The position numbers were made by a program, and so were the translations under genes. A DNA stretch of 64,000 bases from Eledone cirrhosa (Eukaryota). Positions 13,488-64,000 of the stretch are shown here, in pieces; positions within the stretch are counted from its first letter, which is position 1, and every line of letters begins with the position of its first letter. The notes below the pieces were generated by a model, which saw only the letters and a program-made list of their open reading frames with translations, was not told the DNA's origin and ran no database searches. The stretch is from NCBI GenBank assembly GCA_964016885.1, contig OZ024741.1, positions 115,134,001 to 115,198,000 on the forward strand, written 5' to 3'.

Positions 13488-13816
13488 AATGAAATATATT
13501 AACAGTTAAAAATTGAAAATTTTCTACTTAGGAACCTTGTTATTCTAAATGAATTGCAGGGCCCTTACTAGAAAATACGGAAGTTTCTAGTAAAAAGAAT
13601 GAAATTCGAATGTAGGTTGTATCCACCAACACATGTATATATATATATATATATGTAGATAAATCTACCAAAAGAACTCAATGTAATCCGGATATCATGA
13701 AAAGAGAAAATGCATTCAAAAACTACTTTCGGTGAAAAATAAACGGAAAACAGAGTCAAGATAAATTAATAAAATAATGAATAAACAAAGAAACAGTTCC
13801 TTATATTAAAAAAAAT

Positions 13817-13967
13817 TCATCATTTTACGATCGTTTCTAGGATATATATGTGTCAGAGTTTGTATGCATATTCTATAGATCTATGTACAATATTTACAAT
13901 ATTTATACAAACTATCAGAGGGAATATACCTACCTACACATATATATGCTGTCTTCAGAAATAATGA
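13817..13967 (-). ncRNA. Type I hammerhead ribozyme with very long stem II (PLE A, inverted arm)
   Basis: Minus strand: TCATTATTT-CTGAAGA-[stem II]-GAAAC-GATC-GTA-AAATGATGA. The base of stem II is imperfect. Confidence 0.65.
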
Positions 13968-14404
13968 TATTTGTTTATTGAAAAAAACAAAGATTCAATA
14001 CAATAGGTCTGTTTGGGAACAGGTTTTGAATTGACCAATAGATAGATAGTGAGGGTCAGGATAGTAATATAGTAGTAGAAGAACCTTAAATTATGGGTAG
14101 AGGAAGGTAGATTTCAGTTTTGGATGGAAAAGAATATTATGAATGAAGGATTATTTTAGGGAAGAAATAGGTCTTATGCTGACCTCAGAAATAATTTTAT
14201 TTTTTCATTGAATAAAACCAACAAAGATCTAATATATTCTGTCTGTTTGGTAAGAGGTTTAGAATTAACCAATAGAAAGTTAATAATTGGCCAAATGGTA
14301 AAATAGTAGTAATTGAAGCTTATTTTAGGGGTGAAAATAGGTCAGGTGGTCAGTAAAAGGTATACAAGCAGTTGCTGTTATAAAATAGTAATGCCAATAC
14401 AAAT

Positions 14405-14672
14405 TTTTAAAAATGCCGCACTAGCTAATACAACATCTCTAGCTGAAATAATAAATAGTTATAGAAAGAGGAATATAGAATATGACCTGACCTGGAGTGT
14501 GCTCAAAAGGGCCACCCCTTATCAAAATAGTAGAAATGAATGTAGATTATGTTCCCAAGAACTTTTTGAAATAATGAAATCTAAGGATATCCTATTAAAT
14601 AAGCGACAGGAATTAATAATATCGTGTAATCATAAACTGAGAAAAACCTTTAAATATTATAAACCTAATTAA
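14405..14672 (+). pseudogene. PLE GIY-YIG endonuclease C-terminal remnant
   Basis: TSLAEII..LTWSVLKRATPY..CRLCSQE..LLNKRQELIISCNHK parallels the C-terminus of the PLE B ORF. Confidence 0.8.
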
Positions 14673-14899
14673 TATACACTTTAGAAATTAATATATGAAC
14701 TATTTGTAATTTAGTCAACCTATAATTAATATTCTACTACTGATGAACTACATAATTTTGCTTTCCTTCTTACAAATATCATTTCCTAAAACTGATACCA
14801 TTAAGTAAACATATATAATGCTTTAACTTCAGGTTATGACTCTATGTTCTTATATTTACTATTTCTCACTAATAAATTTAATCCCCCCCCACCCAATAA

Positions 14900-60990: not shown

Positions 60991-61030
60991 GCACCTACGT
61001 ACGTTTCGCCCAGTTGGGCTTCTCAGGGGC
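60991..61030 (-). ncRNA. Variant hammerhead (core CUGAGAA)
   Basis: GCCC-CTGAGAA-GCCCAACTGGGC-GAAAC-GTAC-GTA-GGTGC. The C3/A8 mismatch may inactivate it. Confidence 0.55.
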
Positions 61031-61980
61031 ATAAACAATCAAAAGTGTTCCTTACATTGCTCGGAAAGAGTTTTGGGTGTTAAATCCACGTCAAGGTTCA
61101 TTGCTCGCAAAAATAGCTTGTTTTGATTTTGCAGCATGTCAAGGGAGGTAACTTTGGCCGGTGTTAGGGCAGTCTCTCCCGGACAAATTTGTTTTATCTG
61201 CTACGAGATGAGGTTACAACCTTACCATTGTCGATACGTATGTAATCAACGCTTATTTTGAGAGGTTTTTTTGCCACATCTGTTTGTCTGAGTCGTTTGA
61301 GGCTGGGTCTGGTATGCAAGGATTGTTTCCTGGGTGTTATTTTGCAGCGCCTGCCCGCCGGGATGTTAAGACTTGTTGCAGGGAGATCCGGTGCACGGTT
61401 TCACTCCTCATCCTTAACCCATCTGAAGAAGGATATTTTTAAGCGATGTGTCCAACTTATCGCTGTTTCAGCTCTGCTGTTAATGAGCTCGTGGGGTGCA
61501 TCATAACAGCACCCCACCAGCTCATCAACAGCAGAGCTGAAACAGCGATAAATTGTACACATCGCTTAAAAATATCCTTCTTCAGATGGGTTAAGGATGG
61601 GGAGTGAAACCGTGCACCGGATCTCCCTGCAACAACTCTTAAAACCCCGGCGGGCAGGCGCTGCAAAATAACACCCAGGAAACAATCCTTGCATACCAGA
61701 CCAGCCTCAAACGACTCAGACAAATAGATGCGGCAAAAAAAAAAAACTCTCAAAATAAGCGTTGATTACATGTGTATCGACAATGGTAAGGTTGTAACCT
61801 CATCTCGTAGCAGATAAAACAAATTTGTCCGGGAAAGACTGCCCTAACACCGGCCAGAGTTACCTCCCTTGACCTGCTGCAAAATCAAAACAAGCTATTT
61901 TTGCGAGCAATGAACCTTGACATGGATTTAACCCCAAAAGCTCTTTCCGAGCAACGTAAGGAACACTTTTGATTATTTAT

Positions 61981-62020
61981 GCCCTTGAGAAGCCCAACTG
62001 GGCGAAACGTACGTAGGTGG
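61981..62020 (+). ncRNA. Variant hammerhead (core UUGAGAA, U3-A8)
   Basis: GCCC-TTGAGAA-GCCCAACTGGGC-GAAAC-GTAC-GTA-GGTGG; stem I is short. Confidence 0.55.
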
Positions 62021-64000
62021 TGTTTTAAATAAACATGTTTTAATGGTCTATTCTCCGATTTCTTACTTTTCCACGTGCTTGCGCTCTGCCAACTCTCTAG
62101 CTCACTAAATATTAACACTTCGAATATTTAATACTGCCGGCACTCACTAGTATCAAGCACCGTGGGCATACGCTACTTGGCAAATAACTATATGTATCAC
62201 CTATCCTCCCCCTTTTTTTTCTCTCTCTCGATACGTAAATACTGTATATATATATATATATATATATATATATATATATATATATATATATATATATATA
62301 TATATATATATATATATATATATATATATTTATATATATACATACACACACACATATATATATATATATATATATACATATATATATATTTATATTTATA
62401 TTTATATTTATATGTGTTATATATATATATATATATATATATATATATATATATATATATATATATATATATATATATATATATATATATATATATATAT
62501 ATATATATATATATAGTAATATTTATATTTATATTTATATTTATATGTGTTAGATATAACTATAAATATGTAGGGTAGTACTAAGTATTAGCCGGTTACC
62601 GGTATGATAAATTTTCAAGTGTTTTACAGAGCCGAGATACAAAGTGTTAAAACGATCAAATTTTCGTTTAGAACATTTATTAGCGGACAATTATTTCTTC
62701 CTTCTGGAAGTCTGGAATCATCGAAGCATAAGGAATGTCGAAAACGTGTAACTAGAATCCTAGTCATTTAGAACATTTAAGGTACATAGTTGTTATTAGT
62801 GTCAAAGGCATCGTGTGGAGATTCAGCAGTTAAAAAGATGTTCCGCTTGAAATAACACAATTACAGGCAGCACTGGTTGGAAGTGTATGTAAAAGTAAAA
62901 TTGAAAAGCACAAGCAAAATAATGACAAGCAAAAAAACATAGGGACAGAAGTTATAAGCAAGGACAATTGGTGTACAATGCAGGAGTAAATACAGTCATT
63001 GCTTGTAAATTATTTCCCTGTGTTTTTTTGCTTGTCATTTTTTTGCTTGTGCTTTAAGAGTGTCACTACGATAAGAGTGTCACTACGAATTCTTTAAGCA
63101 GTGATTATATCCCGGTGGTCTCGCTCCTATTATCTATAAATGGATTATATCTAATCTAGTGCCAAGTTAAGTAGTCCAAAGATTGCTATTATTACAAGTC
63201 CTGCAAACTCTTTGTGGACGACTAATTTATTGTGCACGGAGAGTGTCCAAGGACTATGAGTTTGTTGAAAAAGAGCTTCTTGAGAAATACTCACTGAAGG
63301 TTGACTAAAAATGCTTACTCAGGGATATGGCACAGCACTGCAGAAACTGTACGCTTATCCACAGAATGACATGCATAGATATGTTGCTAAAAAGCTTCAA
63401 AGTGAGAGTAATATAGATAAGCAACTTCTATCGTGGAGCAACAGTAGGTATATTGGCTCTCACTTCGAAGGATATGCTTTTGCAATCCAGGAATAGGAAA
63501 TAACAACGACATACCTTATGTACAAACGAGATAGGAATGCATGTAAAACGCCTAGATATGACAATAGATGTCAACTGTGGAGGATGTTAACCACTTCATA
63601 GTCTGTTGTTTGAAGATGTCATTGTGATACTATCTACCTATGAGGTATGATGTAATGGTCAACACACTAGAGAGGATGTCACTGAAGATAAAGGCGTTTT
63701 AAATCAGATTAGCATTTCATTATCGAATTAGAATTGACGATATAAAATAATGTTTCCCTAGATACTGAGTAGCTTGTACAAGACAAACTACCAAGAGCTT
63801 ATACACCTTGGTAGTTTATGTGGTTCCTCGAAAAGTTAGAAATAGTAGCCGAAGTCCTTCAATCCTTAAAAATGGAAGGACAATGTAGTGAAAGATATAT
63901 TAAAAGACAGACAGCGGCCAAGATTAGGGCATTGCCTTAAAAAGATTTAATAGATCATATCAAACACAGTACTTATTTCATTGGGTTTGGCAGAGTGTCT

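What the first reader, a model, noticed from the sequence alone, without database searches (positions are those of the whole stretch)
13655..62076. Window-wide system: HHR-bearing divergent fold-backs from several PLE lineages, all in (TA)n
Seen: 14 parseable HHRs in at least six unrelated sequence contexts. In all five paired cases the left arm carries the minus-strand HHR and the right arm the plus-strand one: 13817/15879, 16875-17227/17639-17991, 24161/24419, 57153/59012 and 60991/61981. Nearly all abut (TA)n. Sizes run from RT-coding elements down to ~116-bp hairpins. Known: PLEs carry HHRs in terminal repeats and often have an inverted 5' copy. Inference: one TA-targeting fold-back integration mechanism serves both autonomous PLEs and non-coding HHR passengers and seeds long palindromes.
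Basis: partly seen in the sequence, partly recalled or inferred. Interest (0 to 1): 0.75.

Follow-up and report, generated by a model that had tools for sequence, protein, structure and literature searches.

The report
Penelope elements copied from both ends
The mirror-image, ribozyme-motif repeats are real: they are mostly cut-off ends of known Penelope-type jumping genes, plus one non-coding tandem passenger, sitting in TA repeats with one short-ended and one long-ended arm, a shape that suggests each was likely copied twice, once from each side of the cut DNA.

Summary
HHR motifs, head-to-head arms and (TA)n flanks are in the window, and a sixth pair (element B) was missed. Of 132 genome-wide arms from five families, 121 abut TA (random positions 9.75%; SINE ends 16 of 196) and 129 stop at one of two fixed points. 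All 75 cleanly resolved pairs are head-to-head with one short and one long (tail) end. Which arm reaches further 5' is even (26:26), seven partners are tail-only, and junctions carry microhomology. That argues against simple hairpin fold-back and for two priming events, one per cut strand (inferred). Four of the short "passengers" (E, F1, G, J) are truncated Hydra-type PLEs; D has Neptune/Nematis-type motifs. Only the 310-bp array is clearly non-coding, and it shows the same signature (10 of 10 two-armed arrays). The inverted 5' copy, the tail, TA bias and pLTR HHRs are published; I did not find the strict short+long rule or the retrozyme signature in six paper searches. The window is ordinary for this genome (45 HHR motifs per random 400 kb). 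This scan has reported the same pattern on other DNA of this genome.

The parts
13655..16086 (+). Element A: 5'-truncated Hydra-type PLE. Long-tail inverted arm 13655-14404, body 14405-16086 with end of GIY-YIG domain and short end
   Evidence: HHR 13826-13958(-), 15888-16020(+)
16140..21014 (+). Element B: Hydra-type PLE. Short-end inverted arm 16140-~18237 interrupted by C, RT+EN ORF 18235-20001 interrupted by a SINE-like repeat, long tail 20882-21014; U3-A8 HHRs 16194-16287(-) and 20737-20827(+)
16718..18107 (.). Element C: non-coding 310-bp tandem HHR array (retrozyme-like), two arms head-to-head, long end left, short end right, inside a TA tract of B
21113..21853 (-). Unpaired HHR element H (HHR 21288-21402, 96-nt stem II), TA at both ends; parent not found
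23948..23989 (-). Unpaired HHR motif of a family also seen in random stretches
24103..24623 (.). Element G: head-to-head pair, short end left, ~94-nt tail right; 3' end of a PLE whose longer copies carry a Hydra-type EN
24645..25153 (.). Element F1 (relative of A): palindrome with 134-nt tail, cut inside HHR stem II; longer copy has RT+EN ORF
34382..34571 (.). J hairpin (~113 bp plus ~77-nt tail); duplicate 54058-54247, relatives 21871-22028, 25817-25985, 45064-45232; truncated end of a PLE (L211: repeat-ORF-repeat plus inverted copy)
37158..37230 (.). Empty paralogous (TA)n site of element D
38940..39564 (-). Paralogous E copy: left arm only, HHR segment and right arm absent
41828..44293 (+). 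D': Neptune/Nematis-type PLE, 67% protein identity to D, long end at TA, no inverted arm
56940..59209 (+). Element D: Neptune/Nematis-type PLE, long-tail inverted arm 56940-57321, RT+EN body 57305-58807, short end
60936..62244 (.). Element E: near-perfect 1.1-kb palindrome plus 168-nt tail; truncated Hydra-type PLE
45002..64000 (+). Second copy of a local segmental duplication (first copy 25755-41242)

Best explanation
These are insertions of Penelope-like retroelements and of one non-coding HHR array into existing (TA)n tracts, and each two-armed insertion was likely made by two reverse-transcription events, one primed from each end of the cut target. Inferred steps: the PLE GIY-YIG endonuclease cuts both strands of (TA)n; one 3'-OH primes at a distal RNA site (long, tail end) and the other at a proximal site 40-170 nt upstream (short end); each cDNA stops at its own point; the two cDNA ends are joined by 1-5 nt microhomology or with a few filler bases, probably by host end joining. 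The product always has both element 3' ends pointing outwards, so the left HHR is on minus and the right on plus. The 310-bp array C would use the same machinery in trans on a multimeric or circular RNA, giving tandem units on both arms. Shown: geometry, fixed ends, TA flanks, an empty site, junction sequences, ORF motifs. Inferred: enzyme action, order of events, RNA form, ribozyme activity, which PLE moves C, and whether one or two RNA molecules serve as template.
For: 121 of 132 arms abut TA vs 9.75% of random positions and 16 of 196 SINE ends. 129 of 132 end at one of two fixed points. 75 of 75 pairs with two fixed adjoining ends are short+long and head-to-head; no long+long (my tally). 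In 60 D, B, E, G pairs the short arm reaches further 5' in 26, the long arm in 26, 6 tie, 2 unclear; the two classes are equally young (96.4 vs 96.0% identity, p 0.23). 7 partners consist of tail sequence only (L075, L086, L096, L097, L105, L158, L161). Microhomology of 3 nt or more at 15 of 30 flush junctions vs about 4.8% simulated; 20 of 50 scored junctions carry extra bases. C: 10 of 10 two-armed arrays are short+long, short arm longer in 6. D has an empty (TA)n paralogue. In vitro, an anole PLE nicks and extends both strands of AT-rich DNA, starts RT at two sites that define the tail, and is predicted to be a dimer (PMC11167929).
Against: 38 of 132 arms have no partner within 1.5-8 kb, 13 have an inverted partner without a fixed end, 5 are atypical and 1 (L089) may be short+short, so two-ended fixed priming is not universal. 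Six exact ties and the short head hairpins of G fit self-priming equally well. The paralogue at 38940 shows that a palindrome here can lose an arm after insertion. In E both arms share the same subfamily type wherever readable by eye (about 8 pairs), so no pair from two different masters was seen; arms are slightly more alike within than between elements. L096 and L105 share an identical junction and may be one event. The anole study saw no difference in start site between strands, so it does not explain the strict short+long rule. Samples are the best-scoring hits per family, biased to young copies near the window's subfamily.
Confidence: 0.62

Rival explanations
1. One cDNA is primed at the long end, folds back on itself and copies itself to the short end; later asymmetric deletions in the unstable palindrome produce the cases where the tail arm is the shorter.
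For: Explains the strict short+long rule and same-subfamily arms; ties and perfect palindromic centres; arm loss at 38940; G head hairpins.
Against: Needs kilobase one-sided deletions in half of all young copies, often leaving only 25-40 nt of tail; the two classes do not differ in age; near-identical C arrays show it in 6 of 10; it gives no reason for copying to stop at one fixed short end.
Confidence: 0.2
2. Self-priming on an antisense transcript (Arkhipova 2013) or endonuclease resolution of a DNA intermediate (Craig 2021) creates the palindromic junction and the one-sided tail.
For: Published models for head-to-head junctions and tails; would fix one short and one long end if the nuclease cuts staggered sites.
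Against: A self-primed product makes one arm a subset of the other, which fails for 26 of 52 pairs and 7 tail-only partners; in vitro the tail ends are RT start sites.
Confidence: 0.12
3. The short palindromes are DNA transposons (MITEs with terminal inverted repeats and TA targets), unrelated to the PLEs.
For: Inverted arms in TA; 23660-23822 is a symmetric hairpin with no HHR or parent found.
Against: Centres differ from copy to copy, ends are unequal, and E, F1, G, J continue into PLE ORFs.
Confidence: 0.03
4. Assembly or library fold-back artefact.
For: Palindromes beside microsatellites are artefact-prone (general knowledge).
Against: Arms differ by 1-5%, ends are family-fixed, an empty paralogue exists, and contigs of an independent run show TA loose ends at the two C end positions.
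Confidence: 0.02

Closest known systems
Hydra clade of EN+ PLEs (Craig et al. 2021, PMC8557442; section 11 read, other passages by term search)
   Same: RWK, DKT, CxCX5C linker, CxxC and CxH around E and N, HHR in the repeat, (TA)n targets, inverted 5'-truncated copy, tail at one end (B, E, A/F1; G and J in part).
   Different: Tails here are 77-168 nt against the 30-40 bp described; HHRs of A/F1 and B have 72-116-nt stem II; the paper calls the tail and inversion frequent, and gives no short+long count.
Neptune/Nematis PLEs (as described in PMC8557442 passages)
   Same: D and D': C-terminal GIY-YIG, CX4CX2C linker, DKSG motif, repeat-ORF-repeat structure (L193), HHR, TA flanks.
   Different: No reference tree, so Neptune vs Nematis is not settled.
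Poseidon PAc of green anole (Frangieh et al. 2024, PMC11167929; parts 1-2 of 4 read)
   Same: Two RT start sites define the tail; both strands of AT-rich DNA nicked and extended; predicted dimer.
   Different: Other clade; start sites a few tens of nt apart or less; no strand-specific use of the sites and no head-to-head product shown.
Metazoan non-LTR retrozymes (Cervera and de la Pena 2020, PMC7229834, passages; Li et al. 2026, 10.64898/2026.07.22.740005, parts 1-2 of 5)
   Same: C: 310-bp non-coding tandem units with a type I HHR each; PLEs proposed as helpers.
   Different: C arrays are head-to-head with PLE-type short and long ends in (TA)n; 'inverted' occurs 0 times in the 2020 main text and once in the 2026 preprint (not read in context). 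Circular RNA not shown here.
L1 twin priming (recalled, no call)
   Same: Second target strand primes a second cDNA; inversion junction with microhomology.
   Different: In L1 the second primer lands at variable internal sites and segments barely overlap; here it lands at a fixed site and the arms usually overlap by hundreds to thousands of bases.

Membership tests
Hydra PLE (B, E, A/F1) | RT with C-terminal GIY-YIG in one ORF | tested here: met
   B L220 full ORF; E L236/L226; F1 L182 (frameshifted). Pfam gave no hit for B; assignment rests on motifs.
Hydra PLE (B, E, A/F1) | RWK and DKT motifs | tested here: met
   B and E have both; not visible in the F1 fragments printed.
Hydra PLE (B, E, A/F1) | CxCX5C linker; CxxC and CxH flanking E and N; no CCHH | tested here: met
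   B, E, F1, 36223 fragment; G parent.
Hydra PLE (B, E, A/F1) | HHR in terminal repeat; (TA)n insertion | tested here: met
   B and E carry the U3-A8 core already reported in schistosome PLEs (PMC4209133).
Hydra PLE (B, E, A/F1) | Groups with reference Hydra RTs in a tree | not tested
   No named reference set was fetched; RTs of B, E, F1 are 49-54% identical to each other and give no blastp hit to D.
Neptune/Nematis PLE (D, D') | CX2-5CxxC linker before a C-terminal GIY-YIG, DKG-type motif | tested here: met
   weak Pfam RVT_1 on D'
Neptune/Nematis PLE (D, D') | Phylogenetic placement | not tested
   no references
Non-LTR retrozyme (C) | Non-coding 150-450 bp tandem units, each with a type I HHR | tested here: met
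   310-bp unit, longest stop-free frame 59 aa, 4177 exact matches of a 43-mer, arrays to ~24 units per arm
Non-LTR retrozyme (C) | Self-cleavage and circular RNA | not testable with these tools
   No RNA holder listed; predicted stem II is weak (-0.6 kcal/mol)
MITE / DNA transposon | Equal terminal inverted repeats and a fixed internal structure | tested here: not met
   unequal ends, copy-specific centres

The most novel reading that the evidence does not exclude
PLE integration is obligately asymmetric twin priming: the two halves of the PLE complex prime from two different fixed RNA sites, one per target strand, and this one rule explains the inverted 5' copy and the one-sided tail in at least two PLE clades. 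The same signature on 310-bp HHR arrays would be direct genomic evidence that animal retrozymes are inserted by PLE enzymes, likely by rolling-circle copying from both ends, in a genome with on the order of 300,000 HHR motifs.
Probability: 0.5. Interest if true: 0.7.

Novelty: new variant of a known kind. Interest (0 to 1): 0.5.

Why it matters
How PLEs form their inverted repeats, tails and microsatellite bias is named as an open task in Craig et al. 2021. The short+long rule and the independent arm lengths give a concrete model that the existing in vitro system can test. The C arrays add structural support for the proposed PLE-retrozyme link. Extrapolating 45 motifs per 400 kb gives roughly 3x10^5 HHR motifs in 3.0 Gb, above the 'up to 120 000' retrozyme copies given for axolotl; this is a rough figure from 40 stretches of 14 large contigs. 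The individual ingredients are published, and the scan has noted the pattern repeatedly in this genome.

Tried and rejected
Rfam scan: no HHR family matched, only microsatellite-driven miRNA noise. Pfam on six ORFs: one weak RVT_1. DNA search for family C returned nothing; a pattern search found it. No RNA holder listed for C, so expression is untested. Contigs of three runs give a closed 310-nt unit, which tandem DNA and a circle both produce; uninformative. Arm-versus-arm variant test for one or two RNA templates: inconclusive, since F1, D, B, G samples show almost no subfamily structure, and 13 of 13 recurrent variant calls in the last 200 nt were discordant while longer E haplotypes were concordant. 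F1 head lengths were left out of the 26:26 count because most stop at about -213 to -226, where my reference did not resolve them. No parent found for H, K (23660-23822), L (38485/41412/60600) or M (60428). No similarity of C to any PLE reference beyond chance-level hits. No RT tree with references. One C array ran into Ns and one had no partner; both are outside the 10 of 10. A binomial used n=28 by mistake; one search repeats it with n=30. Paper searches found no paper proposing twin priming for PLEs ('twin priming' had 0 occurrences in the PLE papers listed); subscription papers such as Evgen'ev and Arkhipova 2005 and Arkhipova 2006, Repbase reports, and all supplements were not seen and may hold such a model.

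Full report
Setting. The window is G000:C2:115134001-115198000 of a 3.0-Gb animal genome; earlier scan notes call it an octopus (not checked here). It is rich in (TA)n. Bases 25755-41242 are duplicated at 45002-64000, so several window copies count once.

Observation. A/F1, H and B have stems II of 72-116 nt, which short descriptors and Rfam miss. B and E use a U3-A8 core, a covariant already reported for schistosome PLEs. The strict scan gives 10 motifs in the window against 0 in ten shuffles. Forty random 10-kb stretches hold 45 C3-G8 and 3 U3-A8 motifs against 0 in three shuffles, so the window is typical of its genome. In those stretches five nearest homologous opposite-strand pairs are divergent; three convergent combinations occur in one stretch (L273) between more distant copies and were not dissected.

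In every two-armed element one arm stops at a short end and the other runs on through a tail of about 40 (C), 58 (D), 77 (J), 94 (G), 133-140 (A, B, F1) or 168 nt (E). The main body carries the short end in A and D and the long end in B.

Genome-wide test. I searched with one arm only, without tail, for F1, D, B, E and G (30 loci each, the best-scoring of 464-1877 candidates) and extended 80 loci to 10 kb. From 150 rows I dropped 5 window rows and 13 second hits in an already counted locus. Of 132 arms, 129 end at the short (75) or long (54) point and 121 abut TA; random positions pass the same test at 9.75%, and SINE ends at 16 of 196. My tally: 75 head-to-head short+long pairs, 5 pairs with one cut or imprecise end, 13 with an inverted partner lacking a fixed end, 1 possible short+short (L089, partner 3.5 kb away), 38 without partner, 0 long+long. 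Tail-to-tail neighbours (L161/L179, L169, L175) meet across a TA run and look like separate insertions. D has an empty paralogous site, 73 bp of TA against 37+20 bp around the element, so the tract came first.

What the families are. B, E and A/F1 have the Hydra motifs listed by Craig et al.; their RTs are 49-54% identical. D and D' have a CX4CX2C linker and DKSG and give no blastp hit to the Hydra group. Long copies of D and B show repeat-ORF-repeat structure. F1, E and G continue upstream into PLE coding sequence, and J flanks a Hydra-like ORF in L211. So those hairpins are truncated PLE ends. C differs: a 310-bp non-coding unit with 4177 exact matches of a 43-mer. Of the first 12 arrays examined on C1, 10 have two arms; all 10 are head-to-head, short+long and TA-flanked. 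Contigs of an independent run show TA loose ends at the same two positions.

Mechanism. A cDNA that folds back and copies itself makes the second arm a subset of the first. The tail arm must then be first and must reach at least as far 5'. Among 60 D, B, E and G pairs the short arm reaches further in 26, the long arm in 26, 6 tie and 2 are unclear (tally). Examples: L118 short arm to -4376, tail arm to -343; L095 the reverse. Seven partners are tail only. The two classes are equally close to the reference. Of 50 scored junctions, 30 are flush, with 3 or more nt of microhomology in 15 (simulated 4.8%, p about 1e-12) and none in only 2 (simulated 57%); 20 carry 1-65 extra bases, some locally templated and some perhaps reference mismatch. 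This fits two cDNAs primed from the two target ends and joined at their 3' ends. It agrees with the anole PLE, which nicks and extends both strands and starts at two sites that define the tail. It differs from the self-priming model of Arkhipova 2013 (passages) and the nuclease-resolution remark of Craig 2021.

Against. About 40% of arms have no fixed-end partner. Ties and G's short head hairpins fit self-priming. The E paralogue at 38940 lost its right arm, so deletions do occur. E arms always share a subfamily type where readable: one RNA with strand displacement, or two RNAs from one source, would both fit. Why one end always uses the short site is unexplained by the in vitro data. No activity, RNA or enzyme was tested.

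Known versus new. Published: HHRs in PLE repeats and dual HHRs on opposite strands 100-700 bp apart, inverted 5'-truncated copy, one-sided tail, TA insertion of Hydra, head-to-head junctions, PLEs as likely retrozyme helpers. Not found in six searches: the strict short+long rule, arm-length independence, and head-to-head retrozyme arrays with PLE ends. Older subscription papers and supplements were not seen. Earlier notes of this scan reached the same reading on other stretches of this genome; I wrote my reading before opening them, and they are not independent support.

Verdict. Real, genome-wide and mostly explained by known PLE biology, with a testable refinement of the integration mechanism and a retrozyme variant. 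Interest 0.5.

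Noticed in passing
window 13606-13635 and 21046-21075: A ~30-bp direct repeat flanks the whole A+B+C block and occurs nowhere else in the fetched loci. It may be the target-site duplication of the first insertion; a TA run lies between it and the element end, which could mean some TA is added at insertion.
   Followed up: partly
window 38940-39564 vs 60936-62244: The paralogous E copy lacks the HHR segment and the right arm, is only ~95% identical, and ends in 84 bp of another repeat.
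   Followed up: partly
window 13826-13958, 15888-16020, 21288-21402, 20737-20827: HHR motifs with 72-116-nt stem II, conserved across copies; also seen in random stretches.
   Followed up: partly
L211, L343, L234 (J parent): U3-A8 HHR with a long stem III, read by eye; window J hairpins keep only its 3' half.
   Followed up: partly
window 23660-23822, 38485-38640 / 41412 / 60600, 60428-60570: Small TA-flanked hairpins with no HHR or parent found.
   Followed up: partly
window 36213-37157 and 55958-56902: Another Hydra-type 3' fragment (EN motifs); D inserted in its TA-rich 3' region.
   Followed up: partly
window 49410-50300 and 30080-30990: Degraded sequence resembling mitochondrial COI (recognised from memory in the ORF), present in both duplicate copies; likely a nuclear copy.
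   Followed up: no
window 26576-27751 and 45825-47000 (-): 391-aa ORF with no Pfam hit, possibly transposon-derived.
   Followed up: no
window 1422-3576 (-) and 32760-33830: Decayed LINE-like RT/endonuclease fragments.
   Followed up: no
L096 and L105: Identical 230-bp mini-elements (short arm plus 33-nt inverted tail) on two chromosomes: recurrent junction or re-mobilised unit.
   Followed up: no
runs X1, X4, X6: Each holds the C unit as one closed 340-nt contig at depth 10-15 under a different organism code; run kind unknown.
   Followed up: no
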